Shown: piece by piece, positions 3,001-33,712 of the stretch
Position numbering within the stretch: position 1 is the stretch's first letter
Layout of the letters: each line of letters begins with the position of its first letter
IMG/VR virus record: IMGVR_UViG_3300044723_002769
Coordinates: 1-38,329 of that record
Source of the DNA: a virus
Lineage: Duplodnaviria > Caudoviricetes
Direction: 5' to 3' (one strand)
Length of the DNA stretch: 38,329 bases
Notes under the pieces: model-generated
Database searches by the model: none
Told to the model about the DNA's origin: nothing
The model's input: only the letters and a program-made list of their open reading frames with translations
Program-made: the position numbers and the translations under genes

Positions 3001-6000
3001 GTTCTAAAATCAAATATATTAACTGGTATAGAAGCGGGTGCTGATGTTACAGATGCAACTAATGTAGCAGATGCAGGTGCTTTGATGGATACAGAAGTTG
3101 ATGTAAATATTAAGACATTAACATTACCTGCTAGTACAACAATCACAACATTCGGTGCTTCATTAATAGATGATGCTGATGCCGATACTGCTTTGGCTAC
3201 ATTAGGAGGCACTACTACCGGAATTGCTTTACTTAAAGCAACGAATCCAAGTACGGCAAATTCTCCGGCTGTACCTTTATTTCCAAGACTTAATGCTGAT
3301 AATACTGTGGATTATTTAACTGCTTCACTAATGCTAAGTGCTATTGGTGGAGGAACAGGCGGAGGTTCAGTAACAGAAGTAACAGGCGGTGTAGGTTTTA
3401 CCGTTAATAATGGAACTACTACACCAGATTTAACTTTAGATTTAAGTCAAATTAGTAGTGCAACTTTGGCTACTACTGATTCATTAGTTGGATTTGTAGC
3501 AGGTACGGGTGCAGGTTCTAATTTAAAGGCATCAAGTACTATTGGAAATATTCTTTCTCTTATTGAAATTGCTGATGATACATCCCCACAATTAGGTGGG
3601 AACTTAGATACTAATGGTCATAATATTAAAATTGATGATGCACACGGTATTTTAGATGAAGATGGTAATGAATTATTACTTTTCACAAGTCCCGAATCTA
3701 GTCCTGTAAATTATATAAATATAGCAAATAAGGCAACAGGCAATGCACCAATATTAGCGGCAACAGGGAGTGATGCTGCTGTATCATTAAACATTAGACC
3801 AAAGGGTACAGGTTATGTTAATTTCGATGAAGGAGATATACAAATAGGCACAACTGTTCTTAATGCTACTGCTGCCGAATTGAACGTATTGAACAATTTA
3901 CCTGCTGAAAGTTTCGTTGGAAGAAATGCTGATACAGGTTCAGCAGAAAGACTATCAGTAGCAACCGCATTAACACTATTAGGTGTTACTTCGGGTGCAG
4001 AACCAAACGTTAGAGCGAATTGGAATGAAACAACTTCGTCTAGTGATGCCTTTATTCAAAATAAACCTGATGTTGACAATGTATCAGTTGCTAATTTAAA
4101 AACTGCATTAGCAGGTGGTTTTGGTGATGGTGCGGTTACTATTGGAGATAATGATGACATTGTTACTATTGGCAATAAATTAATAGTAACAGGAGATTTA
4201 GTTGTTAGTGGAACTACAACTACAATTAATACTGCTACTATTGAAGTAGAAGATAACATTCTACAACTAAATACTACACAAGGTACTCCTGATACTGCTA
4301 CTGCGGCTACAAGTGGTATAAGCGTTTATCGTGGTAATGGTATAACACAAGCATCTCTTATATTTGATGATGCTGATGATACTTGGGATTTGACTAATAA
4401 TCTTACTCTTGGTGGAGTATTAACTGCTACAAGTCCGGTATTTACAACTCCTGATTTGGGAACACCTTCTGCAATTAATCTAACTAACGCTACAAGTCCT
4501 CCAACTTGGAATCAATCAACAAGCGGTAATGCTGCTACTGCTACTAAGATTACTACTATAACAAATAGTAATATCGTTCAATTAACTGATGCTCAAACAT
4601 TAACAAATAAAACAATTAATGCGAGTAATAATACTCTAAGTAATATTGCTAATAGTGCTTTAACTTATAGTAGTATAACAATTAATGGTTCTGCTGTATC
4701 TCTAGGCGGTTCAGTTAACACTCCTGATACTGTTTATTCTCTCCCAACTGCCTCTTCAAATATTTTAGGTGGAATTAAAGTTGGTTCTAATTTAACAATT
4801 AGTAATGGTGTATTATCGGGAACTGCTGATACTGTTTACACTCACCCTACACATGATGGAGATGATATAGATATTGACACAACTGCATTAACAGGTGCAA
4901 CTGTTATTTCAGATTTAGACCTTAATATAACTACTGATACATTAGGACACGTTACGGATGCTAATGCTACAATAGCAACAAGAGAATTATCATTAACAGA
5001 CTTAGGTTTTACAGGAGATGCTGATGCTACTGATGATTTAACTGCGGCAGAAATTAGAACTTTAGTTGGAACAGGTAATGGTGGTGTTTTGCCGTCAACA
5101 GGTTCATTAGGAACTTTCTTGAAGCATGATGGAACATTTGGCGCGTTACCTGCTAAAATGGCCTTTACTGTAAGAGACAGTTCAGATACAGATGTTCTTA
5201 TTCCTGATGCTAGATTTATTAAGTTTAATGAAGGTAATGGTTTAGGTATTGCTTTTACAAATACAAATACAGGAGATACAAGCACTCCATTTGAGTTAAC
5301 CTTCCAAGTTAATGATGATGGTATAGGAGCAGACCAATTAGCAAATACTGGTGTTACTGCGGGTTCTTTCACAAGCGCAGATATTACAGTTGATGCACAA
5401 GGAAGAATAACTGCTGCTTCTAGTGGTAGTGGTGGTGGTGCTTCTGCTATTGGTGGCTTAGATGATGTATTAGTAGATTCAACTAATTATATTGATGGAT
5501 TCTTACTTCAAACAGATAGTAATGGTTTAGCGCCTACTACATCTTTTACAGGAAATAATTCAGGAAATATCGGTCTTGGAAAAGATGTATTTACTTCTAT
5601 GACTTCGGGTTCAAATTACAATGTCGGCATAGGTTATAGAGCCTTAGATGCTTTAACTACCGGAGATAATAATATCGCCATTGGATTAGATGCTGGTTCT
5701 TCTGCAACAACAACTTCAGGGGGTGTGTATATAGGGGAGTCAAGTGGTAGACTCGCAACAGGTTTTTACAATACATTACTAGGCCGAAGAACAGGCTACT
5801 CTCTTACAAGTGGGAGTTATAATGTATATCTAGGGGTTTCGGCAGGTGAGAATAATACAACAGGTTCAAATAATACATTCGTTGGTACATTTGCAGGGAA
5901 TAATTCGGGAACGACCTCTAATAGTGTGTTCTTAGGTTATCAATCCGGACAACTAGTTAAAGCGAGTGCAAATATTGCTATTGGGGGTTTAGCATTAAAA

Positions 6001-7017
6001 TGCACCGGAACAGGTGGAACAGGTAATCAAAATATTGCTATTGGGCAATCTTCAATGCAAAATGTAGAAGGTAGTGCTGGTTTTAATATCGGTGTTGGCG
6101 GTCAAACATTTAAAAATCTTACAACAGGTAATAACAACTCCGCTTTAGGATATGAAGCCGGAGAAAACATAACCACAGGAAGTAATAATGTAATACTTGG
6201 GTATGAAGCAGTCACGGAAGTGGGGGCAAATCCAAGTGATACGGTCGCTATTGGTTATCAGGCAGGATGGCAAAATAATGGTTCAAAAAATGTATTCATA
6301 GGCACGAATGCGGGTAGTTCCAATAGTGTTAATAATAGTGGTCAATCAACAGGTCAAAAAAATGTAGGTATTGGTTACTTTAGTCTTTTTAATCTAACAA
6401 CAGGAAGTAATAATATCGCTATTGGTGGAGACTTTGTGGCTAATAACATCACAACAGGTTCAAACAATGTAGTTATTGGTGAAGCAGATGTTCCAAGTGC
6501 AACAGGAGACGACCAATTATCAATAAGTTCGGGTGATGGTGGAGTTACTTGGATTACAGGAGACTCTAATGGTTTTGTAACACACACTAATGGTAGCGAC
6601 CATACATTTGTTATTTTTGGAGAGGAAGGAGATTTATATGCAGGTACAGGAACTACAGGTAATGCTAATGGTTATCAATTTTCATACGGTAATGGTAGGG
6701 CTAATGTAACCAATACAAGTAGTGGAACTGACTTTGGTATTAACGTGCCTCATAATTGTGTTTTAGAAAGAATAGATGTAGTATTCGGTAATAGTGGTAA
6801 TGTAAGTAGCGGCACTACTACGTTTGTTGTAGTAAAAAACGGTTCTAATCAAAGCGGTAATTTAAGCACGAATCATACTAGTGGGGTACATGATACACAC
6901 CATACAGGATTATCTCATGCATTTACAAATGGTGATAGATTTAACTTACGAACAACAACAAGTTCAAGACAAGTTGGCCCTATGAGAATGACAGCAAGAT
7001 TTAGGAGAACAGGTTGA
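1..7017 (+). CDS. Giant tail fibre/adhesin-like protein, 5'-partial (>2338 aa)
   Basis: Frame +1 is open from base 1, so the TTG at 82 is not the true start. T/S/G/A/D/N-rich. Contains phage fibre motifs KPTTLAGYGITDA, LPTASSNILGGIKVG and ITVDAQGRITAA, plus C-terminal GxxNxAxGxxA beta-roll repeats (about 5560-6480). Followed by a fibre chaperone. Confidence 0.8.
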   Translation, partial: GTNQTLDIASVNTDTNTNIGNTDIISGLTALSSIDIANDSLIYRDNSDSGAVKKLSLTELMSAVTEAILPDLSADKITSGEFATGRIPTLAQSKITDLTTDLAAKVPTSRTIAGKALSNNLTLAVNAAGKLEVNDGGTAVVIQNASNVDVVFDNSKITTATLGLDNVDNKSAATLQTEILSAASASDVGLGSAASDITTNATNIATNVTAIALNTAKATNVTTDLGVTTTSTTIDVTSSDGTDATLPVATTSAGGILSAALFDNITANTAKVTNVTTNLAITGTTGARTITSSDGTDAIIPIATSASGTNVSGLITPTMVDAITTNTAKLTANAANVTAALVASTTIDSDDKATILSNIGASSFGGAFSNLTDKPTTLAGYGITDALAGTTTVDDVSVANLLARVDDFDTTQASTFRTSIGAGSATDNNDFINAASFASGTLTLSSDTLSDVTVDISGVNTDTVYSLTNDLASTEITAIQNIGTTTISPQQWGYLGAATGAITNTDSNVSVDNLKTALEGPFADNAVQIGDNTDDIITMRGIVATTLNSQTIGANPVFTDTNDFLDGITADGNKLVFSVSGQTDVDTGTLLGSNAFNSTAFLTSYTVSESDVTNHQAALEITESQISDLGNYLTSVSTSNIVNDAVSYAKMQNVSATSKVLGRITSGAGNVEELTGANLRSIINVEDGATADQTASEITALLNDVGTYSLGTASAGTITINNNIDVTGNLKVTGDTIYHNETIKIVENNTLAFFTDDAAGDGDNGEVRLTAADPVDATYTVTIPAAEFTIPTQDTTYSEATTLVAGLMSTAHHDKLDGIAENANNFSLLDNAVTYAKIQNVATANRVLGSSSAGGAVSEVQVSQDMIADGAVSLAKMANLADGRIIGNVSGSEGTPSALDKDDLHTLLSVTDVGGNFMEMANPSTANTPAVPLFPRLNADNTITTLNASDFRSAIGASASGASNFGVGDITGATEFAGTLVDTDELIFNDGGVLSRMDFSVLKSNILTGIEAGADVTDATNVADAGALMDTEVDVNIKTLTLPASTTITTFGASLIDDADADTALATLGGTTTGIALLKATNPSTANSPAVPLFPRLNADNTVDYLTASLMLSAIGGGTGGGSVTEVTGGVGFTVNNGTTTPDLTLDLSQISSATLATTDSLVGFVAGTGAGSNLKASSTIGNILSLIEIADDTSPQLGGNLDTNGHNIKIDDAHGILDEDGNELLLFTSPESSPVNYINIANKATGNAPILAATGSDAAVSLNIRPKGTGYVNFDEGDIQIGTTVLNATAAELNVLNNLPAESFVGRNADTGSAERLSVATALTLLGVTSGAEPNVRANWNETTSSSDAFIQNKPDVDNVSVANLKTALAGGFGDGAVTIGDNDDIVTIGNKLIVTGDLVVSGTTTTINTATIEVEDNILQLNTTQGTPDTATAATSGISVYRGNGITQASLIFDDADDTWDLTNNLTLGGVLTATSPVFTTPDLGTPSAINLTNATSPPTWNQSTSGNAATATKITTITNSNIVQLTDAQTLTNKTINASNNTLSNIANSALTYSSITINGSAVSLGGSVNTPDTVYSLPTASSNILGGIKVGSNLTISNGVLSGTADTVYTHPTHDGDDIDIDTTALTGATVISDLDLNITTDTLGHVTDANATIATRELSLTDLGFTGDADATDDLTAAEIRTLVGTGNGGVLPSTGSLGTFLKHDGTFGALPAKMAFTVRDSSDTDVLIPDARFIKFNEGNGLGIAFTNTNTGDTSTPFELTFQVNDDGIGADQLANTGVTAGSFTSADITVDAQGRITAASSGSGGGASAIGGLDDVLVDSTNYIDGFLLQTDSNGLAPTTSFTGNNSGNIGLGKDVFTSMTSGSNYNVGIGYRALDALTTGDNNIAIGLDAGSSATTTSGGVYIGESSGRLATGFYNTLLGRRTGYSLTSGSYNVYLGVSAGENNTTGSNNTFVGTFAGNNSGTTSNSVFLGYQSGQLVKASANIAIGGLALKCTGTGGTGNQNIAIGQSSMQNVEGSAGFNIGVGGQTFKNLTTGNNNSALGYEAGENITTGSNNVILGYEAVTEVGANPSDTVAIGYQAGWQNNGSKNVFIGTNAGSSNSVNNSGQSTGQKNVGIGYFSLFNLTTGSNNIAIGGDFVANNITTGSNNVVIGEADVPSATGDDQLSISSGDGGVTWITGDSNGFVTHTNGSDHTFVIFGEEGDLYAGTGTTGNANGYQFSYGNGRANVTNTSSGTDFGINVPHNCVLERIDVVFGNSGNVSSGTTTFVVVKNGSNQSGNLSTNHTSGVHDTHHTGLSHAFTNGDRFNLRTTTSSRQVGPMRMTARFRRTG
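2764..2826 (+). repeat. 63-bp direct repeat, copy 1 (NPSTANTPAVPLFPRLNADNT)
   Basis: 62/63 identical to 3244-3306. Confidence 0.95.
3244..3306 (+). repeat. 63-bp direct repeat, copy 2 (NPSTANSPAVPLFPRLNADNT)
   Basis: 62/63 identical to 2764-2826, offset 480 bp, same frame. Confidence 0.95.
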
Positions 7018-15006: not shown

Positions 15007-15410
15007 TATTCATCATTCTCCGTATCAAACTTAAACTTTAATTCTGTTATTAAAGTTTCCAAACAATCTTCACAATCACAATCCCTACCGTGTAAAACTC
15101 TCGTTTTATTTTTTGGTGCGTAGGTAGTAATGAAAGATTCAGGTGGTTTTTCTATTAGTTTAATTTCACCCTTATTTACTGTTAATCCTATGTATTCTTT
15201 TGAATCAAAGAACATAGTTTCTTTTTTATTTTTATCTATTTTTAGTTTTTTAACTTTCTGTTTTCTATTTTTGTTGAAGAAGTTCTTAATTTTATTATAA
15301 TCACTAATAACTTCCCCTTTAACAAACACACACCAATTTATTATTTTAGCATATTTGATTTTCCATCTTTCTATTCTTCTTTCCATAGACCAAGATAATC
15401 TCAAAACCAT
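15006..15410 (-). CDS. Hypothetical basic protein with HxxxCxCxxC motif
   Basis: 134-aa ORF; HGRDCDCEDC. Confidence 0.55.
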   Translation of the reverse strand: MVLRLSWSMERRIERWKIKYAKIINWCVFVKGEVISDYNKIKNFFNKNRKQKVKKLKIDKNKKETMFFDSKEYIGLTVNKGEIKLIEKPPESFITTYAPKNKTRVLHGRDCDCEDCLETLITELKFKFDTENDE

Positions 15411-16327
15411 TCCCCCAACTCTTGATTTCTACTTTTGGTAATATTATCTATATTCCAACCCATTGCATTGTAGATGGGTTCTGCCTTGCTAACTACTTGA
15501 TAAGCATAATGTAAATAATCGGGAGTAAAATGTTCTAACTCAGATTCATTCTTAACTGAAACCCAAGAAGGAATAGTATCTTCTTGAGTCAATGGGTGAA
15601 TATAAGAAACAGTATTACCTTTTATTTTAATGTAAATATAAGAATCTTCTATTGGTGATTCATTGAAATGGTTGTAATACAATACTCCCTCTATACCCGA
15701 ACCAATTGTGGGTTTCTTATCTTGTAGAGTTCTAAGATTAGGTTTATTACAACACTTCCACTTATCACTAGAAAAATTACTACGGTGTTCTGCAATATTC
15801 TCAATGATTTCTGATAGTGAGAAAACCTTTCCCCATTTCATTTTTTTACATTCTCCCATACATTTCACCTTGAATCTCTCTTCACGATACCTAGTTCTAT
15901 TAGTAAGCATAGATAATTCTATATCTCCCGATAAAACCTTATTGAATAAATCGTGTAAGTAATTAGTAATAGTTTCTTCACTATTACCATCAACCCACAT
16001 TCTCAGAACCTTTAGTTGAGTTTCTTTTGCTAATTTAGTTTGTGCAACTCTCTTTGCAGAAAAACCTGTAAGAACAAACTCATCTTCTTCGAGGTATTCT
16101 CCATCCTTCCAAGAAATCAAACCTGCATTTCTGTTCTTAGTTGCACCAACACCTAAAGATTTGTAATATTTTTCAAACTCTAAAGTAACAGGGTGTTCAT
16201 CTAAACCTAATAAATTAGGAAAAGATTTCCTAACATGGTCGTTAATTTCACTACAAACTTTCTTTGCTTTTTCTATATCATCACATTGTACATAAATTGA
16301 ATCAGTGTGTCCGTAAACAACCTTCAT
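15401..16327 (-). CDS. polB: Family B DNA polymerase, C-terminal part (motif C and thumb)
   Basis: Starts MKVVYGHTDS; LEFEKYY; PIP-like end NQELGEWF. The first 30 aa of the ORF-track call are probably not translated. Confidence 0.88.
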   Translation of the reverse strand: MKVVYGHTDSIYVQCDDIEKAKKVCSEINDHVRKSFPNLLGLDEHPVTLEFEKYYKSLGVGATKNRNAGLISWKDGEYLEEDEFVLTGFSAKRVAQTKLAKETQLKVLRMWVDGNSEETITNYLHDLFNKVLSGDIELSMLTNRTRYREERFKVKCMGECKKMKWGKVFSLSEIIENIAEHRSNFSSDKWKCCNKPNLRTLQDKKPTIGSGIEGVLYYNHFNESPIEDSYIYIKIKGNTVSYIHPLTQEDTIPSWVSVKNESELEHFTPDYLHYAYQVVSKAEPIYNAMGWNIDNITKSRNQELGEWF

Positions 16328-16446
16328 GTTATCATCCCCGCTACTATAACAGCAACAATGATGACACTTACTAAAATAAACGCTGTCGCAAGTCCGATTT
16401 GTAACACTAACAAACATTGTCCTAATTTCATATATCTTTTACTCAT
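16324..16446 (-). CDS. 40-aa hydrophobic membrane peptide inserted between the PolB halves
   Basis: MSKRYMKLGQCLLVLQIGLATAFILVSVIIVAVIVAGMIT; TAATG overlap upstream and ATGA overlap downstream. Confidence 0.6.
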   Translation of the reverse strand: MSKRYMKLGQCLLVLQIGLATAFILVSVIIVAVIVAGMIT

Positions 16447-18146
16447 TATAATTCCCTCGCTTTAAATGCGGCTAATCTAATAGCCTCTCTAGCACTAGCA
16501 GTAATACTAGCGGCTAGGTCTATATCAGCCCAACCAAATCCTTGATAGGCTGTAATACCATAAAATGATGCCATCAATCTCTTGACCGCCATTTGATTAT
16601 TATTCCACTTAATCTTATCATCTTTGGTTGTTGATTCTTTCATATTCTTTTTGTATTCGTTTCTTAATGCTTTAAGTTCAATAAGAGACTTAGGTAATAA
16701 TCCTAACTTATCTGTATTGTAATACAACATCTTCTCTTCCTTAACTTCACTAAAATCTCTAGGTATTGCTAGATTAACTGCAAACTCAGTAGGACTTTTA
16801 GATTTAGACTCCCATGATATATTTCTTGAAATAATCATTGAAGGGTATAGACCTGCAAAATCAAATGCTGCTACGTTATCATATCTACCATTAGTACCTT
16901 CTGTTAATGGATTGTATATCATTGCTCCATCATAGTTAACCTTCTCACCTTTCTTACCTGTTGGTGCTTTCCAATTAGCATTACGCATAAAATATATTCC
17001 TCCCATATTACTTGCATAGAAGCAAGCATCAAAAGGAGCAACTAGTAATTTTTGTAACGCTAAAACTGAATCAATACAATGGTTTTCATCATCTATTCTT
17101 TTGATTAACTCAACATCTTTTATTGCATATTCTAAATATGTTTCAGTGTCCTCTAACCAACCTCTAGCAAAGAACTCATTTTTATCGGGAAACCTTTCAC
17201 TAACTAATTTCTTATCTCCTAAAATAGTTTCAGAAATATAATCTAAAGCCATAGAAGGTAATGTTCCTCTTTGTGAATCGTTCCATTGTCTTTCAAAGAC
17301 TAAATCCAATGCTACTGTAATTACTCCCTTAATTGGTTGTGTTATAGGAGAAGAACTATTTACTTGTTTAGGATATATCTTAACTTTGTTATCCTTCCAA
17401 GAAACTCCCCTTACTTCATTAAAGGGAGATAACATTCTTGAATCAATATTGTAAATACTATTTCTCTCTATTAGTTTAGGTAAGTCGAATTTCCAACCGA
17501 ACCATGAGATTAACATATCCGGTCTCGTTTGAATAAAATATGTTAAGAAGTTGTCAAGCATAGATTCTTCTGACTTGAATATTTTTAAGTTATAATTCCT
17601 TCTTAATTTGTAAAGGAACTCCATACTAAGTTTTTGTTCTAAGTTAGGAAACCAAGCGAATACACTATACTCATCATCATAACTATCGTATATTACTATA
17701 CAAGTAATCTTGCCATCATGTTCTCCGCCTTGCATCCATTCCATATCCCAAAAACACTTACGCATTTTATAATCGGGAATAGAACTTAACTCATCAACAG
17801 CATACCGATAATGATGTGGTATATCTGCTTCGTAAGTGTCAACACCTAATTCTTCTAACTTCTCTCTAATCTGATACCTAAGACTAGGAGATTTAGTACC
17901 CCAAGAAACCTTCACCAAAGATTCACCTTCAAGAGATACCCAATCTCCTAATTCGTAAGTTAAGTCAACCCGAAACTTACCTCTTGTATTATTATCTTTA
18001 ACTAACAAATTATTGTGTCTAGTTGACGTAGCCTTAATGAAAAAGTAATGTTTGAAGTCTTTCAAAGAAACAGTTTCTTGTAGTCTGTTATTATTTTCAT
18101 CTCTCCAAACTAATCCTATTCCATTTTTTATCTCATTAATTATCAG
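16446..18146 (-). CDS. polB: Family B DNA polymerase, N-terminal part (exonuclease plus motifs A and B)
   Basis: ExoI WDMEW, ExoII KFD, ExoIII YAIKD, motif A DFAGLYPS, motif B KRLMASFYG. Start uncertain: CTG at 18146 with a GGAG SD, or TTG at 18065. Confidence 0.9.
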   Translation of the reverse strand: MIINEIKNGIGLVWRDENNNRLQETVSLKDFKHYFFIKATSTRHNNLLVKDNNTRGKFRVDLTYELGDWVSLEGESLVKVSWGTKSPSLRYQIREKLEELGVDTYEADIPHHYRYAVDELSSIPDYKMRKCFWDMEWMQGGEHDGKITCIVIYDSYDDEYSVFAWFPNLEQKLSMEFLYKLRRNYNLKIFKSEESMLDNFLTYFIQTRPDMLISWFGWKFDLPKLIERNSIYNIDSRMLSPFNEVRGVSWKDNKVKIYPKQVNSSSPITQPIKGVITVALDLVFERQWNDSQRGTLPSMALDYISETILGDKKLVSERFPDKNEFFARGWLEDTETYLEYAIKDVELIKRIDDENHCIDSVLALQKLLVAPFDACFYASNMGGIYFMRNANWKAPTGKKGEKVNYDGAMIYNPLTEGTNGRYDNVAAFDFAGLYPSMIISRNISWESKSKSPTEFAVNLAIPRDFSEVKEEKMLYYNTDKLGLLPKSLIELKALRNEYKKNMKESTTKDDKIKWNNNQMAVKRLMASFYGITAYQGFGWADIDLAASITASAREAIRLAAFKAREL

Positions 18147-24569: not shown

Positions 24570-26114
24570 CTATATCATATTTTTTATATCTTCCATTGTG
24601 TTGCAATTAAAAGCGTGTTTGTCATTCCTAATCCTAACAACTCTAGGAAATCTCAAGCCATAATTACCATCAGAATCTTGTGATATTAAATCACATCTTA
24701 CTTCTAAGACAATTCTAGGTAGAACGTAGAACACATCGGAAGAATATTTATCAATTATTTTTTTAAGTTCAGTTGTTAAATACAGTAAATCTCCATCAGA
24801 TAACCCACTACCAACATTGCCTACACTTTGATAACCATTTTTAGTTTTGGCAGATATCCCAAAAGAACCGAACAACCCCGCCCTTCTACCTTCACCATAT
24901 TTAGCAGAAGATATAACTAAATCCAATTCAATTCTAGGCGGTTTATGTTTCAAAATATTATTACTTCTACCACTCCTATACTTAGCATCTAAATCCTTTA
25001 TCATAATACCTTCAAAACCATTGTTAATAGATGTGTTATATGCTGATTCTATTGTAGTTTCTTCTGAAAAACTCCATACTCTGTTTTCCATAGGGAAGTC
25101 TTTCAGATGCGAAAGACGCTTTAGATATGGCTCGTCAATTAACAAGAACCCCATGTATTGTATTATATCGAATATAACCATTTTAACAGGGCATTTAAGC
25201 ATGGCTTCTTGTTTATCTTTAGCATGAACCCTAGCGGCCATTTTCTTATGAGGAGCAGGTTCTATACTGCCATTTTCAATGACAGGATATATCTCAGTAT
25301 CTAAAATGCAAGTACTGGCGTTAAATTTTTTAACTTGTTCTACAACATCTAGAAATTGGTTAGTAACTATCTTACCTTTCCTGTTAAAAATCATTACATC
25401 GGACTTGTTTTTATGAATTTGGTATCTATTACCGTCATATTTAACATCTAAAATATAATTTTTAGGTAAATTATTAGAATATGTTTTTGCTAAAGATGGT
25501 TTTAGGAACATTCCTGTTTGAATAGTGGTAGGAGGTTCTTTTCCTTGCTCTAAGTATTGAAAAACAGTAGAAACAGGTTGAATAGAAGATAAATACTCTA
25601 CTCTTTGGTTAGGAAACCTTCTTTTGACTGCCTTAACAACAGTCGAATTAGAGACACTGTTTCTAGGTGTCCTTAACCAATAACGAATAAACCATTTTAA
25701 TTCTAAATTAGACATATTATTAACTGATTCAGCAAAAACAGTATAAGAATCACTATTTATGCTAGAACAATCTAATGTTAACAGAGAATATAATTGTTTA
25801 ATACTATAATTACTTTCTTTACCGTTAGGTAAAAACTGATACATACCTTCTCCTATATCTCCCCAAATTTCTTCTTCTGCTTTAACTTCTTCATCAAACA
25901 ATTCTAATGCGTTTGCTATCCAAGTTACTGCACGTTTATTTCCAATAGAATTAACTTCTAAATTAAGACTAAGAATATCTATAACAGTTTTAGGATTAGT
26001 AAATGAACTAAGAGATTCGTCTATGATTCTAATTTTGTTTGTTGTACTATCTTGTAGTTCTAGTGCTTCACACATTCTTGCAAATCTAATTAGTGTCATC
26101 CTTGTTCGCCTCAT
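24570..26114 (-). CDS. lig: ATP-dependent DNA ligase
   Basis: KYDGNR, LDTE, FDI, EGIMIK, LRFPRVVRIRNDK. Confidence 0.95.
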   Translation of the reverse strand: MRRTRMTLIRFARMCEALELQDSTTNKIRIIDESLSSFTNPKTVIDILSLNLEVNSIGNKRAVTWIANALELFDEEVKAEEEIWGDIGEGMYQFLPNGKESNYSIKQLYSLLTLDCSSINSDSYTVFAESVNNMSNLELKWFIRYWLRTPRNSVSNSTVVKAVKRRFPNQRVEYLSSIQPVSTVFQYLEQGKEPPTTIQTGMFLKPSLAKTYSNNLPKNYILDVKYDGNRYQIHKNKSDVMIFNRKGKIVTNQFLDVVEQVKKFNASTCILDTEIYPVIENGSIEPAPHKKMAARVHAKDKQEAMLKCPVKMVIFDIIQYMGFLLIDEPYLKRLSHLKDFPMENRVWSFSEETTIESAYNTSINNGFEGIMIKDLDAKYRSGRSNNILKHKPPRIELDLVISSAKYGEGRRAGLFGSFGISAKTKNGYQSVGNVGSGLSDGDLLYLTTELKKIIDKYSSDVFYVLPRIVLEVRCDLISQDSDGNYGLRFPRVVRIRNDKHAFNCNTMEDIKNMI

Positions 26115-26316
26115 TTTTATTATTTATTTTTTCCAACGCTTTAATTAACGTAGGTAATTCTTCCATATTTATTCTAACTCCTTTTCTTGTTGGTTTTCCA
26201 TCTGAATACCATCTAACATCCACGACTTCAACTTTCCAAAACTCTCCTGTTTTGATTAGTAATTCAGTAGTAGCATTACGTGGTACTCTTGCTATAATAT
26301 CCATATCATCACTCAC
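26086..26316 (-). CDS. PC4/YdbC-like ssDNA-binding protein
   Basis: VDVRWY..GKPTRKGV.I..EEL. Confidence 0.8.
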   Translation of the reverse strand: MSDDMDIIARVPRNATTELLIKTGEFWKVEVVDVRWYSDGKPTRKGVRINMEELPTLIKALEKINNKNEANKDDTN

Positions 26317-26399
26317 TCTTCTTCACATCCTTTAATAATTCTCGTTGATTTCCATTTTCTTAATATCCATTCTTTAGTCATATAATCTTCGTCTTCCAT
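26313..26399 (-). CDS. Micro-ORF (28 aa)
   Basis: MEDEDYMTKEW...; stop-start overlaps on both sides. Confidence 0.4.
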   Translation of the reverse strand: MEDEDYMTKEWILRKWKSTRIIKGCEEE

Positions 26400-26803
26400 T
26401 ATGTAAACCAACCTTCCTTAAATCTAGTAAGTTCCTTATGTGTGGTGAAATATCTAGGTGATTCTAAATCATCTAATCTATTGGCTACCCAAATAACTCC
26501 ACCCAAACTACTTATCTTAACAATTTCATATTGTCTCTTCTCATCACACTCGAATATTTCTTCTGTATTAACTTCGGGTACTAAACCGTAGTTTCTAGAT
26601 AATTCAGTTGCTATTTGTTCAAGGTTATTAGAAACATATTGTACTATTAGATTTCGTTGTATTGGAACTTTAGCGTCAACTACTAACTTCATCTTACCTG
26701 TCATGTCGCAGACTTTACATTTGTTTCCTTCACAAATAGGACATAGTATTTCAGCAGGTAGTGGGGCAGGGAACTGAATAGTAACCGCCTTGTGTTTAAC
26801 CAT
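26399..26803 (-). CDS. Protein with DnaJ-like Zn-finger motif
   Basis: CPICEG..CKVCDMTG. Confidence 0.6.
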   Translation of the reverse strand: MVKHKAVTIQFPAPLPAEILCPICEGNKCKVCDMTGKMKLVVDAKVPIQRNLIVQYVSNNLEQIATELSRNYGLVPEVNTEEIFECDEKRQYEIVKISSLGGVIWVANRLDDLESPRYFTTHKELTRFKEGWFT

Positions 26804-27694: not shown

Positions 27695-28267
27695 TTATTC
27701 TTCACCGTCCTTTACAGGTTCTATATCATCAAAAACTGTTTGTTGTAGTAAACCGTAGAAAACCTTCTTTGCAGAATAAGTTCCTTCTTCATATTGTTCA
27801 TTGTTCATGTTAACAGCAAGATATTGATTATCTCCAAGTACTATTGCACTCTTCATCATAGTATTCCAAGTATTTACAGTTCTCCAATCAGTACTGCTTA
27901 GGTACGCTTCTCCAAAAGGATGAGTATGAATCCAACTCTTAATCGGTATTCTCATTGGTGCGCCATTTACTAATTCGTCTTCATGTCCTTGAAAAGATAC
28001 GAAAGCGGGAGTACCGCTACTAATATACAAATCATCTTTGTCATCTATTACTACTTGTACTTCCATACCTTCTAACACTTCATCGGACATTTGCCAAATA
28101 GCAGATAGAAACATTTCTGTATCTGCACACGGCCTAATAAAATTAACACCGCCTTCACTATTAGACATATCCTTGTAAACACTTCTGATGTGTTCTTTCC
28201 AATCAAAGTCTTTCATTGCTTCTTCATTTTCTTCATTATTTATTTCTTCTTTATTTTCTTCTTTCAT
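27695..28267 (-). CDS. JAB/JAMM (MPN+) metallo-isopeptidase
   Basis: E...HTHPFGEAYLSSTD matches E-xn-HxH-x7-S-xx-D. Confidence 0.88.
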   Translation of the reverse strand: MKEENKEEINNEENEEAMKDFDWKEHIRSVYKDMSNSEGGVNFIRPCADTEMFLSAIWQMSDEVLEGMEVQVVIDDKDDLYISSGTPAFVSFQGHEDELVNGAPMRIPIKSWIHTHPFGEAYLSSTDWRTVNTWNTMMKSAIVLGDNQYLAVNMNNEQYEEGTYSAKKVFYGLLQQTVFDDIEPVKDGEE

Positions 28268-28269
28268 TT

Positions 28270-28512
28270 TTATATTCCCCCCATTTGTTCTACCATAAAG
28301 TCTTGAGAGTTCTCAAACTCATGGAATGCTTTATGTCCGGCTATGAAACCACCTGCGTGTCTTTTAGTTCCCATGAACTCTTCTAGACAAACAGGACAAC
28401 ATACCTTGACTATTTCTGCTTGTAAGTAAAAACCATCTGTTGCAATAACATTCATTATATTACCTACATCTTCTTCTATTAAATCATCTATTTCTGTATC
28501 TTCTTCACTCAT
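28270..28512 (-). CDS. C2H2-type Zn-finger protein
   Basis: CPVC...HKAFH; between the E1 and JAMM genes. Confidence 0.65.
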   Translation of the reverse strand: MSEEDTEIDDLIEEDVGNIMNVIATDGFYLQAEIVKVCCPVCLEEFMGTKRHAGGFIAGHKAFHEFENSQDFMVEQMGGI

Positions 28513-29138
28513 ACATTCACAACCATTTTATCTGTTACATCATTATTATCGTTAAACCAACGTTGAATCCATTGAGTCGCAATACCTGCTATGGCAATGT
28601 GCATAGTACTAATATCTTTAGCAGAACCATCCCAATCACCGCCTTGACAACTGAATGAACCTTCTGCACCAACAAGTAAGTCAGGTATTAATGTGGGATT
28701 AACTTTGTATGAAATCAATACTCCGTTCCTACCTTGCGCTCTAAGGTCTAACCACTTAACAGGACTATCTTCACCATGTCCTGTTTTGTAAAGTAGTCTT
28801 CTTGCTGCTAAGTTATCCACACAGCAGATTACTAAATCATATTTCTTTTCAGTTAATTGTTTAGCAGTAAGGACTTGATGTTCTCTTTTGTCGTTTAATG
28901 CAGGTTGTATTCCAATCTTGTTTCCCAATACTCTAACTTTAGATTTACCAATATCTTCAACATTAAAATTCTGATAAGACAAGTTCTTTTCTTCTACCTT
29001 ATCATCATCGTAAATTGTAATATCATACAACGCTTGTCTTTCTTCACTAATTCTTTCTAGGAAAGATGCTAGATAACTACCTATTCCACCTGCCCCAATT
29101 ATCAATAATTTTCTTTGTTTTAATTTCTTTGTTTTCAT
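28509..29138 (-). CDS. E1-like (ThiF/MoeB/UbaA family) Ubl-activating enzyme
   Basis: IIGAGGIGS, DDDKVEEKNLSYQ, IGKSKV, CVDNLAAR; candidate catalytic Cys in SCQ. Confidence 0.92.
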   Translation of the reverse strand: MKTKKLKQRKLLIIGAGGIGSYLASFLERISEERQALYDITIYDDDKVEEKNLSYQNFNVEDIGKSKVRVLGNKIGIQPALNDKREHQVLTAKQLTEKKYDLVICCVDNLAARRLLYKTGHGEDSPVKWLDLRAQGRNGVLISYKVNPTLIPDLLVGAEGSFSCQGGDWDGSAKDISTMHIAIAGIATQWIQRWFNDNNDVTDKMVVNV

Positions 29139-29420: not shown

Positions 29421-30353
29421 TTATCTTACTCCATTCATTATATTTTTTGTTGTATATGACCTTAACTTAGTTTTGTCTAAATTAAGATTTACACACATCT
29501 TTCTTGTTTTTTCTCTTATTGTTACTTCACTAACTGTACTACAATCTCCAAGTGCAACTTGTGTAATACTTTTTGAATTATAATTTTGTCCTACAATCCA
29601 TATTGCTGCTACTATATCGCTAACAGTAAAAGTCAAATCAAAATTATCATAACATTGTTTTGCATAATCTACAAAATTATAACAATCCATTCTAAAGTTT
29701 CCCTCTATCTTCTCTTTAAATCTAGTTTTTTCTCTAGAGTTTAGTTTGACTATAATACTAGAAACCATTTCGTCTGTATTTAATTGACTAAATATGTGTG
29801 ATTTACCGAACTTTCTAGTTACTCTTTTTGATGTTCTCATAATATTTTTTACGGGAACTTTAATTTTCTTAGAATAATCTTTTAGGGAAACCGGAATACC
29901 TCTTTCCTTTAGTACATAATATACAATACCTGCTGCTACGTCATCTAAAGGTAAACCTCTAACTAAATGTTCGTCTTTTAATATTCTATATTTTTTAATA
30001 ACTTCATTTTTTAATTTACCACCATTGTAATATGAAAGGTATATACCCGTAGCAACTAACACTTTATTTTCTGAATCATTATGATTTGTTCTCATATTGT
30101 TTGTTCTCAAAGCATAATCAGTTTTACTTTTAACATCCTTTCTTTCAATAATAGAACCTAATTTATATGAGTCAGTCGAGTTTTGAAAGTAATTATTTCT
30201 GATGTAACCTTTACTTTTTTCTGTTGAGAAAAAATTTTTATTAGTTTCTTCAAATATATTTACTGATAATATCAAACCACAATCAGCACAAATAGTTTCA
30301 CCCATTCTTTCATCGAAAGTTGTAGTGGTGGATTCGCATTCAAAACACTTCAT
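29421..30353 (-). CDS. tfb: Viral transcription factor B (TFIIB-like)
   Basis: N-terminal Zn ribbon CFEC...GETICADCGL; cyclin-fold repeats VAAGIVY and TQ..LG..STVSEVTIR. Confidence 0.88.
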   Translation of the reverse strand: MKCFECESTTTTFDERMGETICADCGLILSVNIFEETNKNFFSTEKSKGYIRNNYFQNSTDSYKLGSIIERKDVKSKTDYALRTNNMRTNHNDSENKVLVATGIYLSYYNGGKLKNEVIKKYRILKDEHLVRGLPLDDVAAGIVYYVLKERGIPVSLKDYSKKIKVPVKNIMRTSKRVTRKFGKSHIFSQLNTDEMVSSIIVKLNSREKTRFKEKIEGNFRMDCYNFVDYAKQCYDNFDLTFTVSDIVAAIWIVGQNYNSKSITQVALGDCSTVSEVTIREKTRKMCVNLNLDKTKLRSYTTKNIMNGVR

Positions 30354-30436
30354 TTCATCACCATTATCCTACAACAATCGCTATCTTTAACCCGAAGGTC
30401 GCCTAGTTCTTTTTTACATTTATTACATATTTTCAT
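30350..30436 (-). CDS. Cys-rich micro-ORF (28 aa, MKICNKCKK...DCC)
   Basis: Abuts the upstream stop and has an ATGA overlap with tfb. Confidence 0.45.
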   Translation of the reverse strand: MKICNKCKKELGDLRVKDSDCCRIMVMK

Positions 30437-31819
30437 TTATTCATTCTCCTTCATTCTTTTCTTGTGTAAATATTCATCACACTTTCTTTGACTCCAATGG
30501 TTTAACTTAGACCTATCTAATCTAGCCATAACTCTACTTCCATTTTTCAAATCATCGTCTATTAACGGTCTAATTGTATAGAGATGATGTGCTGCTACAT
30601 CTTCATTTACCAATGCTAATGCCCTCGCTGTTAGTTGGTCTCCGATACTAGCACCCTTAGAAACATTGTCAATACAAATAGAACCGGAAAGTTTCATACC
30701 ATGCCAATTTCCTCTTTCGTCAGAGAAACCAACTATTTGATGAGTACTAACATCTTGATTACCTCTTTTCATACCATCACCTGTATAAGTAACAACCCAA
30801 TCACAATACTTACCATGAACAAATAATGCTTTATTCTTAGGGTTTCTGAATTGTACGAAGTCAATCTGAGGTGTTTCTGCTGCAATATCGAACAACAATT
30901 TAGTTGCCCTATCTTCTACAATATCAGAAGTTCTATGTTGTAATAACCATTGAGTCATTTTCTCTAATTCTGTTGCGGTTGGTTTGCTACCCATTGTTTG
31001 TTCCCAAAGGAACTCGTTAGTAACACCAACATTCCATTTCTTACTCCTCTTCTTACCGAACTTAAAGTAATCAATAAAGGTACTCAATTCTTTAGTAGAT
31101 AGAACACCCCAAACACTGTCAGATATTTCTAATACACATTCGTCATCACTAATTAGTTTAGTATTGATAACAACCTCTGTTTGTCTAAATAGATGATTAA
31201 AATGATATGGTGTTCTATTTTCCAAAGCATATAGGACATTATGAGGAAAGGTAGTAACTTTTACTGCGTAAGTAGTTAATTGTTTTGAACACTTTGTTAG
31301 TGCTGCTCTTAGAATTATCTTACTAATCGCTTTAACTACATCTGCTTTGTTTCTAGGTAATCCGTTAATATAATATCTTTTATTAGTGCGACCATAGAAT
31401 ATTTTACTTTGGCCGTTGTAATATTTGAAAGATATTGTATTCATAAAATTATCTTTATCGGTATCGTAAAGTTTGTGAGGAAAAAGAACTTCCTCGACTT
31501 TCTTAGAAAGAGATTCTAGAACAGGGTCAGAACCTTCCACAGAAGTATTCATGTGAGTTCTTCTACAAGTAACAATTCTTTCACCAAACGAATTTAGATT
31601 TTTTGTTTTATAATCATAAACTTTGTCTGAGTTAGACAAATGTCTGTATGAGTCTAAACCCTTTTTTTTAGCAATCACGGCACTCTTAGTTCTGTTTATA
31701 TTTCGCTCATATAGTGTGCGGAATATTTTCTTGTTGTTATTTTCGATTCTTAATAATAGACTTGATGTAATTTGATTTCCACCATCACCTACTGTTGGTA
31801 TTATATATTTTATTTTCAT
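30437..31819 (-). CDS. Large protein with putative C-terminal E2/UBC-like domain
   Basis: Predicted helix, 4 strands, then H-x5-GSICID and a helix, resembling the E2 active-site region; clustered with Ubl, E1 and JAMM. Confidence 0.5.
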   Translation of the reverse strand: MKIKYIIPTVGDGGNQITSSLLLRIENNNKKIFRTLYERNINRTKSAVIAKKKGLDSYRHLSNSDKVYDYKTKNLNSFGERIVTCRRTHMNTSVEGSDPVLESLSKKVEEVLFPHKLYDTDKDNFMNTISFKYYNGQSKIFYGRTNKRYYINGLPRNKADVVKAISKIILRAALTKCSKQLTTYAVKVTTFPHNVLYALENRTPYHFNHLFRQTEVVINTKLISDDECVLEISDSVWGVLSTKELSTFIDYFKFGKKRSKKWNVGVTNEFLWEQTMGSKPTATELEKMTQWLLQHRTSDIVEDRATKLLFDIAAETPQIDFVQFRNPKNKALFVHGKYCDWVVTYTGDGMKRGNQDVSTHQIVGFSDERGNWHGMKLSGSICIDNVSKGASIGDQLTARALALVNEDVAAHHLYTIRPLIDDDLKNGSRVMARLDRSKLNHWSQRKCDEYLHKKRMKENE

Positions 31820-32075: not shown

Positions 32076-32092
32076 CTTTTTTTTTTATTTTT

Positions 32093-32195
32093 AATGGGCA
32101 TCCCACCCATTTGATAACAACTCCCGTTATTGGGATTACTTAACAGTGCAATGCACCATATAGTAATTACCGATAGATACTATAATCTATGGTAA
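32093..32195. other. Cluster of abutting hairpins downstream of the Ubl gene
   Basis: ATGGG/CCCAT, TCCC/GGGA, TTACT..GTGCA/TGCAC..AGTAA and TTACC.ATAGAT/ATCTAT.GGTAA. Confidence 0.4.
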
Positions 32196-32216
32196 GATAG
32201 TAACACTTTAACAGAA

Positions 32217-32426
32217 TTATTGGTTTCCGCCAACAATTGCTTGAACAAGGTTAACAGTTTCAACATCATTCCAATTTATGTCGCTAATAGATTCACGGCT
32301 AACCATGTCATTATCAACATAAACCCAATGAGTTGGGTGTTCTGCTATCTGTTCAATCATCTCAGATGTCGTAACATCTAATTCTGTATGTCCTCTTTCA
32401 TTCATTATTCTCAATTTCATTTTCAT
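32217..32426 (-). CDS. Ubiquitin-like (beta-grasp) protein with GG plus 2-aa extension
   Basis: 69 aa; strand-strand-helix-strand layout (WVYVDN); ends VNLVQAIVGG-NQ. Confidence 0.8.
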   Translation of the reverse strand: MKMKLRIMNERGHTELDVTTSEMIEQIAEHPTHWVYVDNDMVSRESISDINWNDVETVNLVQAIVGGNQ

Positions 32427-32454: not shown

Positions 32455-32721
32455 TTAAGACTGTGTTGACTGTCTCGCTTGATTAAGCGTGTTCTCTAAC
32501 GATGATATGTAAGATTTTAATTCTCTCTTATCACCGAGGAGTTGTGTTTGCATTGCTTCATAGACTTCTATCTTTTGACGCAAATCTTGCACTGTTTTCT
32601 CAAGACTTTGAGCGTATGTTAAAAGATTTGTGTAATCTCCTTTCATGCTCTCAATAATCTGTTCACTAGTTATTTCCGGTTGTTTTTCTTCTTTCTTTTC
32701 TTCTTTCTTAGCCATTTTCAT
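32455..32721 (-). CDS. Coiled-coil protein
   Basis: Heptad-like Q/E/K/L pattern. Confidence 0.6.
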   Translation of the reverse strand: MKMAKKEEKKEEKQPEITSEQIIESMKGDYTNLLTYAQSLEKTVQDLRQKIEVYEAMQTQLLGDKRELKSYISSLENTLNQARQSTQS

Positions 32722-33712
32722 GCACCTCGTTATCTCCTAAGAGAATATCATTACGTCTTCGTAAGATATTAATAAGACTATCGCATTGTTTGGGTGAAGG
32801 TCTCTCCATCCTCACAATTTTCCTTCTCATATCTCTTAGAAATCTTCTTTCCCAATTATTTTGGGCTTCGCCTGTTGTAAAAGGTCTAATTCCGAAATAT
32901 TTACAACAATGTAAAAACTTTTGTTGGTCTAAATCATTATCATTTACTGTAACTAATTTCTTAGTAATATATGAATCAACATTATCTAAATGAATTATTC
33001 TATTAGAATCAATGGAGTCCATCTTATTTACAATATCCAAATGTTTTTGCATATTGATTTTAAATAAAACTAAATCTTCCATAAGTTTATCATTTGGAGT
33101 TCCTCTTTTACTATCTCTTTGTCTTCTAGGATTGTCGGGATGATTCCATCTCCAAACAATAGAAGCCATTTCATAGGTAGGAGTACCATACAAACCATTA
33201 CTACTTTTACGAATAAAGGTCTCAGGTCTGTAATCTTTAACAGATTCTTCCCAATATGTTTTTCCTGTTTTCTTAACATTGATTCTCAAATCTAATTCTT
33301 TAATTTCATCAAAAGTATTAGTAAACTCTTTGCCATTTTCTTCCCACCAAGCATCTTTAATTAAAGTTTGAACAGCAGTCTGCTTCCAATCTTCAATCAT
33401 CTTCTCAGTAATAGTTCTCCTATCTATTTTCAATTTCTCTTCCATATGTCGAAGAACCATCCAATTATTAATACAACTTGAACCTACAATTTCTAGTATT
33501 CCATTTTCAGTATTTTCAATTTCAAAATGATAAACTATATCGTGTCCGCAAAGACAAGAATTAGGATGTCCTGAAACATGATTACTTGTTGTTTCATTAG
33601 GAGACTGTTTCCAAACATTTCCTGTAATTCTCCATTCCTTTTTTGCTTCTTCATAATCATTAGAATTAGATAATGCTAGTAATTTATTTGTTAATCTACT
33701 GTAAGTAGCCAT
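32708..33712 (-). CDS. Conserved viral protein with CxCGH...VGSxC Zn motif
   Basis: CLCGHDIVYHFEIEN...VGSSCI. Confidence 0.6.
   Translation of the reverse strand: MATYSRLTNKLLALSNSNDYEEAKKEWRITGNVWKQSPNETTSNHVSGHPNSCLCGHDIVYHFEIENTENGILEIVGSSCINNWMVLRHMEEKLKIDRRTITEKMIEDWKQTAVQTLIKDAWWEENGKEFTNTFDEIKELDLRINVKKTGKTYWEESVKDYRPETFIRKSSNGLYGTPTYEMASIVWRWNHPDNPRRQRDSKRGTPNDKLMEDLVLFKINMQKHLDIVNKMDSIDSNRIIHLDNVDSYITKKLVTVNDNDLDQQKFLHCCKYFGIRPFTTGEAQNNWERRFLRDMRRKIVRMERPSPKQCDSLINILRRRNDILLGDNEVHENG

What the first reader, a model, noticed from the sequence alone, without database searches (positions are those of the whole stretch)
30437..31819. Unannotated 460-aa protein may be a divergent E2 fused to a large targeting domain
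The C-terminal third reads as helix (EDRATKLLFDIAAE), strands (IDFVQF, ALFVHG, DWVVTY, VSTHQI), then WHGMKLSGSICID (Cys codon at 30674-30676) and a helix (IGDQLTARALAL). This parallels the UBC order and the H..G.IC(L/I)D site, although HPN is absent. The roughly 300-aa basic N-terminal part could select substrates, giving an E2-E3 hybrid.
Basis: inference. Interest (0 to 1): 0.75.

Follow-up and report, generated by a model that had tools for sequence, protein, structure and literature searches.

The report
Magrovirus E2-like enzyme in ubiquitin-like cassette
This conserved protein of an ocean virus, probably of archaea, ends in a domain predicted to fold like a ubiquitin-carrier (E2) enzyme with one near-invariant cysteine, and it sits among the virus's own small tag-like protein, activating enzyme and trimming protease, so the virus likely tags proteins itself; what the protein's large front part does is not shown.

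Summary
The ORF is real, and the E2 reading is the best one. Cys382 (codon 30676-30674) is kept in 202 of 203 family sequences. Residues 295-436 model as a UBC-like fold, but weakly (best Z 5.3, no Foldseek or Pfam hit). HHalign puts Cys382 on the E2 catalytic cysteine at only 5-15% probability.

The order is identical in 135 of 135 complete loci.

The 'E2-E3 hybrid' is unproven. Residues 1-296 fold confidently but match nothing. Only 1-190 is basic and variable; 191-296 is the most conserved part and may dock the E1 instead. The TFB-like gene nearly always abuts this one, so it is a candidate partner or target.

I found no description in the papers searched; one supplement lists a magrovirus 'moeB'. 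This scan has already reported the same family on other magrovirus DNA (e1-5344352, e1-9764842, e1-6093648, e1-5984974). Verdict: new variant of prokaryotic Ubl conjugation, untested at the bench.

The parts
30437..31819 (-). 460-aa E2-like protein (whole ORF)
   Evidence: ORF; 155 homologues by word search, 192 by profile search; model pLDDT 87, pTM 0.65
30512..30931 (-). Predicted UBC/E2-like domain, residues 297-436
   Evidence: VIA rows span 295-436 and are mostly E2/UEV/RWD entries; best Z 5.3 (rmsd 3.2, 86 aligned) and 5.1 (rmsd 4.0, 117 aligned)
30674..30676 (-). Cys382, predicted catalytic cysteine in G-x-I-C-I-D-N
   Evidence: 202 of 203; aligned to the E2 catalytic Cys by HHalign at low probability
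30932..31249 (-). Conserved middle domain, residues 191-296 (helix, five-strand meander, three helices), fold unassigned
   Evidence: Most conserved region: median pairwise identity 0.48, against 0.39 for 297-420 and 0.24 for 1-190; W237 203 of 203; no fold match
31250..31819 (-). Variable, basic N-terminal alpha/beta domain, residues 1-190, fold unassigned
   Evidence: Net charge +20; family median +9, positive in 97% of 203; best Z 4.5 to an immunity protein
32217..32426 (-). 69-aa ubiquitin-like candidate ending Gly-Gly plus a 2-residue tail
   Evidence: GG invariant in 56 of 56; tails of 0-4 residues in 104 loci; weak Pfam ThiS match in 14 of 56, best E 8.4e-4; not folded here
29421..30353 (-). 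TFB-like protein (zinc ribbon plus cyclin folds), candidate partner or target
   Evidence: Pfam Zn_Ribbon_TF 5e-9, NCBIfam TFIIB 3e-12 below cut-off; starts within 40 nt of the E2-like stop in 169 of 192 distinct loci and within 254 nt in all 192
28509..29138 (-). 209-aa ThiF/E1-like adenylating enzyme with invariant GxGGxG and Cys164
   Evidence: Pfam ThiF 1.9e-18; best PDB sequence match UBA5, E 8e-11; Cys164 67 of 67
27695..28267 (-). JAB/JAMM metalloprotease with E69, H114, H116, S124, D127
   Evidence: All five invariant in 69 of 69; Prok-JAB in 43 of 49 members; AMSH-like hits, E 9e-6
30350..30436 (-). 28-codon Cys-rich micro-ORF between the E2-like and TFB-like genes
   Evidence: Read from the sequence; near-identical in 10 other loci of the closest clade, absent elsewhere

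Best explanation
The protein is likely the carrier (E2-like) enzyme of a virus-encoded ubiquitin-like conjugation system, and its near-invariant Cys382 is predicted to hold the viral 69-aa tag as a thioester. Inferred sequence of events: the JAB protease trims the tag's short tail to expose Gly-Gly; the ThiF/E1 adenylates it and, probably through its own Cys164, passes it to Cys382; the E2-like protein then transfers it to a target without a separate E3, as in bacterial Bil systems; the JAB can reverse the link. The conserved middle domain (191-296) most likely serves the core reaction, for example by docking the very small E1, which has no appended E2-recruiting domain. The variable basic domain (1-190) is the likeliest place for target or nucleic-acid binding. 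The adjacent viral TFB-like protein is my leading candidate partner or target. Shown here: gene content, order, residue conservation and predicted fold. Inferred: all chemistry, the domain roles and the target.
For: Cys382 in 202 of 203 sequences down to about 14% identity, the only conserved Cys in the protein. Residues 295-436 align to UBC-fold entries: by my count of titles, 34 of the top 50 rows among 48,161 chains are E2, UEV, RWD, FANCL, Cap2 or BubB entries (similar). HHalign to 110 viral canonical E2s gives a colinear alignment from helix 1 to the C-terminus, with Cys on Cys at the highest column confidence; only windows that contain Cys382 score above 2%. Among 165 distinct viral or MAG loci, with enough flank the Ubl is present in 123 of 123, the E1 in 155 of 155 and the JAB in 123 of 123. 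All 135 loci with all five genes keep the order Ubl, E2-like, TFB, E1, JAB. The reciprocal holds: 79 of 80 Ubl-seeded viral loci and 37 of 37 long metagenome loci carry the E2-like gene. The Ubl Gly-Gly does not overlap a downstream start, and it carries a tail of the kind JABs trim (PMC10557695 passages). Prokaryotic E2s that lack the classical His are known (PMC1779556 passages), and Bil conjugates without an E3 (PMC10557695 passages).
Against: The fold match is weak: best Z 5.3, only 2 chains at Z 5 or more, below the Z 8 that the tool calls distinctive. The top row (FANCL) and many others are non-catalytic UBC-fold modules. Foldseek finds nothing at E 0.001, and 0 of 72 domain sequences match any E2 Pfam family at E up to 1. 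HHalign probability is 5-15%, against 91% for the Cap2-versus-E2 positive control, and it is partly circular because the E2 set was collected with the same motif. The match to Cap2-type E2 is 0.3%. There is no HPN and no conserved His anywhere. E1 Cys164 aligns, at low confidence, to a zinc-site Cys of Cap2 E1s and not clearly to a catalytic one. The Ubl fold was not modelled. Gene order is also conserved for unrelated replication genes in these viruses, so synteny alone does not prove one pathway.
Confidence: 0.72

Rival explanations
1. The protein is a cysteine enzyme or binding module of another kind: a non-catalytic RWD/UEV-like scaffold for the viral TFB, or a Cys protease or deconjugase acting on the Ubl. 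It is not a Ubl carrier.
For: Weak fold scores with RWD/UEV/FANCL among the best rows. No E2 family hit. Its tightest genetic link is to the TFB-like gene, not to E1 or the Ubl: median gap to the Ubl about 2.8 kb, against under 40 nt to TFB in 169 of 192 loci.
Against: The one conserved Cys falls at the E2 catalytic position, and RWD/UEV modules lack it (recalled). No conserved His for a protease dyad. A JAB already supplies processing.
Confidence: 0.13
2. The cassette is a sulfur relay: the ThiS-like protein is adenylated and thiocarboxylated, and Cys382 carries a persulfide or thioester for thiolation of tRNA, DNA or a cofactor.
For: The only recurring Pfam signal for the small protein is ThiS (14 of 56). 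The E1 matches ThiF/MoeB models and is listed as 'moeB' among magrovirus auxiliary genes (PMC10160649 Table S3 header).
Against: No rhodanese, desulfurase, ThiG, MoaE or thiouridylase was recognised among the 30 window ORFs scanned. The partner has a UBC-like fold. The best solved match of the E1 is the Ubl-activating enzyme UBA5.
Confidence: 0.08
3. The protein accepts the Ubl but is itself the end point: it stays loaded or modifies itself, and the load switches its binding to TFB or DNA. No outside target is tagged.
For: A large obligate N-terminal part is present in all full-length members (about 330-520 aa in protein searches), and no convincing stand-alone E2 domain was found. Position 167 is Lys or Arg in 181 of 203.
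Against: No invariant Lys in the protein (K167 120, K260 124 and K337 137 of 203). Characterised Bil systems conjugate to other proteins (PMC10557695, PMC11601596 passages).
Confidence: 0.07

Closest known systems
Canonical E2/UBC enzymes (Pfam UQ_con PF00179; UBE2S 1zdn, Ubc12, Ubc13, Ubc9)
   Same: Predicted helix-four-strand meander-Cys loop-helix core (Z 4.5-5.1, rmsd about 4, 107-122 residues aligned); G-x-I-C-x-D around the Cys
   Different: No HPN; no Pfam match; its own invariant residues (Q355, D394, Q395, R399, T415); a 296-residue N-terminal extension of unknown fold
Bacterial BilABCD (PMC10557695, passages read)
   Same: Ubl precursor with a tail, E2, JAB and E1, with no E3 gene; the authors propose that a variable E2 loop selects targets
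   Different: Virus-encoded, not host defence; the E1 is a single 209-aa domain, not IAD plus AAD plus CYS; no CEHH motif; no PADLOC Bil match for the E2-like protein, Ubl or JAB; a TFB-like gene is embedded
PRTRC / operon type 6d of Iyer et al. 2006 (PMC1779556, passages read; TIGR03736)
   Same: Ubl, JAB, E1 and an E2 lacking the classical His; the best NCBIfam match of the E1 is PRTRC ThiF
   Different: E1 scores 65.9 bits against a cut-off of 144.75; no PRTRC model matches the E2-like protein, Ubl or JAB; the downstream conserved His of type 6d E2s is absent
Archaeal SAMP system (Haloferax UbaA, SAMPs, JAMM1/2; PMC4895103, passages read)
   Same: Small ThiS-like Gly-Gly tag, E1 and JAMM; a basal transcription factor (TBP2) is a shown target
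   Different: SAMP conjugation uses no E2 (recalled); here a dedicated E2-like gene is always present and the system is viral
Nidhogg Asgard viruses (bioRxiv 10.1101/2021.07.29.454249, passages read)
   Same: Archaeal viruses encoding ThiF/E1-like genes
   Different: The passages report only E1-like genes, proposed to use the host E2 and Ubl; this virus carries Ubl, E1, E2-like and JAB candidates itself

Membership tests
Canonical E2/UBC (PF00179) | UBC fold | tested here: inconclusive
   UBC-fold entries dominate the list but best Z is 5.3, and Foldseek gives no hit
Canonical E2/UBC (PF00179) | Conserved Cys at the catalytic position after strand 4 | tested here: met
   202 of 203; Cys on Cys in HHalign, probability only 5-15%
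Canonical E2/UBC (PF00179) | HPN motif upstream of the Cys | tested here: not met
   His373 in 17 of 203 with 94 gaps; no conserved His in the protein
Canonical E2/UBC (PF00179) | Match to the family profile | tested here: not met
   0 of 72 domain sequences at E up to 1
Canonical E2/UBC (PF00179) | E1-dependent Ubl thioester on the Cys | not testable with these tools
   Needs biochemistry
Cap2-type prokaryotic E2 (Prok-E2_B, PF14461) | Profile similarity to the E2 domain, usually fused to E1 | tested here: not met
   HHalign 0.3% against an 8-sequence profile that matched canonical E2s at 91%; the E1 is a separate gene
BilABCD | Ubl, E2, JAB and E1 genes together | tested here: met
   135 of 135 complete loci; the Ubl and E2 identities are predictions
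BilABCD | BilB CEHH motif and two-adenylation-domain BilD | tested here: not met
   No conserved His; 209-aa E1 with only a partial BilD match
PRTRC system | Components above NCBIfam cut-offs | tested here: not met
   ThiF 65.9 against 144.75 bits; the other genes have no match
RING/U-box-type E3 or E2-E3 hybrid | Conserved zinc-ligand Cys/His set in the extension | tested here: not met
   Extension Cys positions 85, 177 and 228 are Cys in 24, 6 and 80 of 203; no His position above 65 of 203
RING/U-box-type E3 or E2-E3 hybrid | Known E3 or substrate-adaptor fold in the extension | tested here: inconclusive
   Model pTM 0.84; best Z 4.5 and no Foldseek hit
RING/U-box-type E3 or E2-E3 hybrid | Extension needed for target modification but not for Ubl loading | not testable with these tools
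   Needs truncation assays
JAB/JAMM protease (27695-28267) | E-H-x-H-S-D metal site | tested here: met
   E69, H114, H116, S124, D127 in 69 of 69
Beta-grasp Ubl (32217-32426) | C-terminal Gly-Gly | tested here: met
   56 of 56
Beta-grasp Ubl (32217-32426) | Beta-grasp fold | tested here: inconclusive
   Weak ThiS match in 14 of 56; no PDB sequence match; not folded
Magroviruses (viruses of Poseidoniales) | Archaeal-type replication module; split PolB in group B | tested here: inconclusive
   Two-piece PolB, RFC, weak clamp match and ligase found, as described in PMC5434244 passages; no tree was built and no capsid gene lies in the window

The most novel reading that the evidence does not exclude
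Magroviruses run a complete, self-contained ubiquitin-like pathway in which a new class of His-less E2, fused to a domain of new fold, picks its own target without an E3 and tags the co-translated viral TFB (or the host's basal transcription machinery) to time viral transcription.
Probability: 0.25. Interest if true: 0.85.

Novelty: new variant of a known kind. Interest (0 to 1): 0.66.

Why it matters
Characterised prokaryotic E1-E2-Ubl pathways (CBASS Cap2, Bil, Bub) are cell-encoded, and those with a known role defend against phage. A full set carried as apparently fixed genes by a widespread lineage of marine archaeal viruses would turn that around, with the virus as the tagger. It would also add an E2 class that sequence profiles cannot see. 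The four small, soluble components can be tested in vitro or in E. coli although neither virus nor host is cultured. The E1 has so far been counted as a 'moeB' metabolic gene, so the annotation of these viruses would change as well.

Tried and rejected
PDB sequence searches with the single protein and its profile gave nothing significant. ESM Atlas gave no usable hit for either half. The INPHARED phage set has no tblastn match. BFVD gave only three unnamed relatives.

A tandem-RWD or triple-E2 (FANCL-like) architecture was suggested by three rows that start near residue 200. I rejected it: the N-terminal model alone retrieved no UBC entry in the top 50 VIA rows (one weak RWD row in Foldseek, E 0.13), and internal HHalign comparisons scored under 1%. 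Those absences do not exclude a remote relationship.

Stand-alone E2-domain forms: the short hits examined are mostly on 1-3 kb contigs or cluster with full-length proteins, so I took them as fragments. Two lie on 12 and 22 kb contigs and were not inspected.

A second Gly-Gly-tailed protein (28270-28512) was rejected as a modifier, because its GG codons usually overlap the next gene's ribosome-binding site.

Cellular homologues: one GTDB scan with a strict middle-domain pattern found a single locus, L082. It is labelled as a Maricaulis MAG but has the viral gene order, so it is probably mis-binned. This does not test remote host homologues, and no Poseidoniales genome could be searched.

Expression: contigs of four metatranscriptomes cover short pieces from related strains, including 30870-31105, but contigs cannot show transcription.

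Pairwise-identity correlations among the cassette genes were no higher than with ligase or RFC, so they say nothing on co-evolution.

Full report
Setting. The window is a 38,329-base linear virus record, estimated 41% complete. It encodes a two-piece PolB, RFC, a weak clamp match and an ATP-dependent ligase. That fits the replication module of magroviruses and the split polymerase of group B in the passages I read of PMC5434244. I built no tree, so the assignment and the Poseidoniales host are inferred.

The observation. The ORF runs 31819-30437 on the minus strand, 460 aa, and Cys382 is the TGT at 30676-30674. No profile library names it. A word search gave 155 homologues, of which 120 were listed. 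A full profile search gave 192, of which 150 were listed. In an alignment of the query and the 202 proteins of 330 aa or more (of 261 held), Cys382 is Cys in 202 of 203 rows and a gap in one. The other five cysteines are kept in 6-80 rows, and no histidine in more than 65. The conserved site is G-x-I-C-I-D-N, followed by D394, Q395, R399, N405 and T415 (198-203 of 203), with Q355, G336 and W237 invariant upstream. Third-position substitutions dominate against three close relatives.

The C-terminal fold. The full-length model has pLDDT 87 and pTM 0.65. Foldseek found nothing in the PDB at E 0.001; UbcH7 came at rank 44. The wide VIA search of 48,161 chains returned rows spanning residues 295-436. 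The best were FANCL (Z 5.3, rmsd 3.2, 86 aligned) and UBE2S (Z 5.1, rmsd 4.0, 117 aligned). By my count of titles, 34 of the top 50 are E2, UEV, RWD, FANCL, Cap2 or BubB entries; the second look gave the same picture with best Z 4.9. These scores are below what the tool treats as distinctive, and the domain was not folded alone, so the fold is likely but not settled.

Profile comparison. I collected 110 distinct canonical viral E2 domains. HHalign gave 5% probability for the whole domain, against under 1% for seven control profiles and 91% for the Cap2 positive control. With a permissive realignment, the alignment runs colinearly from helix 1 to the end and sets Cys382 on the catalytic Cys. 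Of 27 sliding windows, the five containing Cys382 score 7-15% and the rest under 2%. This is partly circular, since the E2 set was chosen by that motif. None of 72 domain sequences matches an E2 Pfam family.

Context, the strongest evidence. Four neighbours recur. First, a 69-aa ORF at 32217-32426 has an invariant Gly-Gly (56 of 56), a 0-4 residue tail (104 loci) and a weak ThiS match in 14 of 56 members. Second, a 209-aa ThiF protein is closest to UBA5 among solved structures and has an invariant Cys164. Third, a JAB protein has the whole JAMM site invariant in 69 of 69. Fourth, there is a TFB-like gene. Across 165 distinct viral or MAG loci, the Ubl was found in 144 (123 of 123 with at least 5.5 kb upstream), the E1 in 161 (155 of 155 with at least 4 kb downstream) and the JAB in 158 (123 of 123 with at least 7 kb). 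All 135 loci with the five genes keep the same order. This includes a relative at 17% identity. Ubl-seeded searches return the E2-like gene in 79 of 80 viral loci, the miss being a locus that ends 3.7 kb downstream. They return it in 56 of 80 metagenome loci, including 37 of 37 long ones. Other, unrelated genes are also syntenic in these viruses, so order alone is not proof; the case rests on the four complementary activities predicted together.

The TFB link. Gaps from Ubl to E2-like (median 2.8 kb) and from E1 to JAB (median 0.8 kb) take insertions freely. The TFB-like gene begins within 40 nt of the E2-like stop in 169 of 192 distinct loci and within 254 nt in all; the longer gaps hold micro-ORFs, as in this window. 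Three loci missed by the profile have an overlapping 205-216 aa gene with a zinc-ribbon-like start that I read by eye as a divergent TFB. This suggests coupled expression and makes TFB a candidate partner or target. A basal transcription factor is a shown SAMP target in Haloferax (PMC4895103 passages). Against this, no Lys of the TFB-like family reaches 75% conservation, and binding could not be modelled.

The N-terminal 296 residues. Folded alone they give pLDDT 92 and pTM 0.84, but no match above Z 4.5 and no Foldseek hit. They are two different things. Residues 1-190 are basic (net +20; family median +9) and variable: median pairwise identity is 0.24, and the first 98 positions are occupied in under 60% of rows. 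Residues 191-296 are neutral and the most conserved part of the protein, at 0.48 against 0.39 for the E2-like domain. There is no RING-like ligand set. Variable and basic fits target or nucleic-acid binding; highly conserved fits a core contact such as docking the minimal E1.

Mechanism, inferred. The JAB trims the tag; the E1 adenylates it and probably forms a Cys164 thioester; Cys382 accepts it; transfer to a target follows without a separate E3, as reported for Bil, where a variable E2 loop is proposed to select targets (PMC10557695 passages). A caveat is that Cys164 aligned at low confidence to a zinc-site Cys of Cap2 E1s, so the E1 thioester step is less sure than adenylation. E2s without the classical His are known in bacteria (PMC1779556 passages), and Bub systems depart further, using oxyesters (PMC11601596 passages).

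What is in print. Searches for magrovirus with ubiquitin and MGII virus with ThiF gave 0 papers. Broader searches (listings and abstract starts only) showed no description of this cassette. Term searches of three magrovirus papers found no ThiF, ubiquitin or JAB in the main text or in the supplements held, apart from a 'moeB' column in Table S3 of PMC10160649. The supplements held for PMC11706807 total under 9,000 characters, so unseen annotation tables may name these genes, and subscription papers are not covered. Asgard Nidhogg viruses carry E1-like genes only, in the passages read. Earlier notes of this scan describe the same family and cassette on other genomes. I had reached this reading before opening them and do not count them as support. 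Their claim of a related set in the host chromosome I could not test.

Verdict. This is a real, conserved gene that probably works like an E2 (0.72) but is not a member of UQ_con, Prok-E2_B, Bil or PRTRC by the features tested. It is a new variant of prokaryotic Ubl conjugation, carried by a virus. The targeting role of the N-terminal part is open.

Noticed in passing
window 30350-30436 (-): 28-codon Cys-rich micro-ORF (CxxC ... CC) starting right after the E2-like stop and overlapping the TFB-like start; near-identical in 10 other loci of the closest clade, replaced by other micro-ORFs or absent elsewhere.
   Followed up: partly
window 28270-28512 (-): 80-aa CxxC...HxxxH zinc-finger-like protein between E1 and JAB that usually ends Gly-Gly-X; the GG codons mostly overlap the next gene's ribosome-binding site, so probably not a second modifier.
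   Followed up: partly
window 15401-18065 (-): Family B DNA polymerase split into 539-aa and 338-aa ORFs, as described for group B magroviruses.
   Followed up: partly
window 32076-32216 (-) and the same place in relatives: The non-coding stretch after the Ubl gene often holds hairpin-like and recurring sequence blocks across loci; it may be a terminator or a small RNA. Not folded.
   Followed up: no
window 32708-33712 (-) and 26399-26803 (-): Two further unannotated proteins (334 aa with a conserved-looking Cys/His stretch; 134 aa with CxxC...CxxC) recur in 67 and 70 of 81 loci around the cassette and have no library match.
   Followed up: no
window 26086-26316 (-): PC4-like small protein (Pfam E 1.4e-4) conserved in 75 of 81 loci just upstream of the ligase.
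   Followed up: no
L082 (whole locus): Contig in a MAG labelled Maricaulis carries the E2-like, TFB, E1 and JAB genes in viral order; probably a mis-binned viral contig.
   Followed up: partly
L372 11229-11867, L373 11244-11894, L379 10578-11195: In the most divergent clade the gene after the E2-like gene is a shortened 205-216 aa TFB-like protein that overlaps it by 60-80 nt.
   Followed up: partly
window 1-7017 (+): Very long (over 2,300 aa) low-complexity tail-fibre-like ORF, open at the window's start.
   Followed up: no
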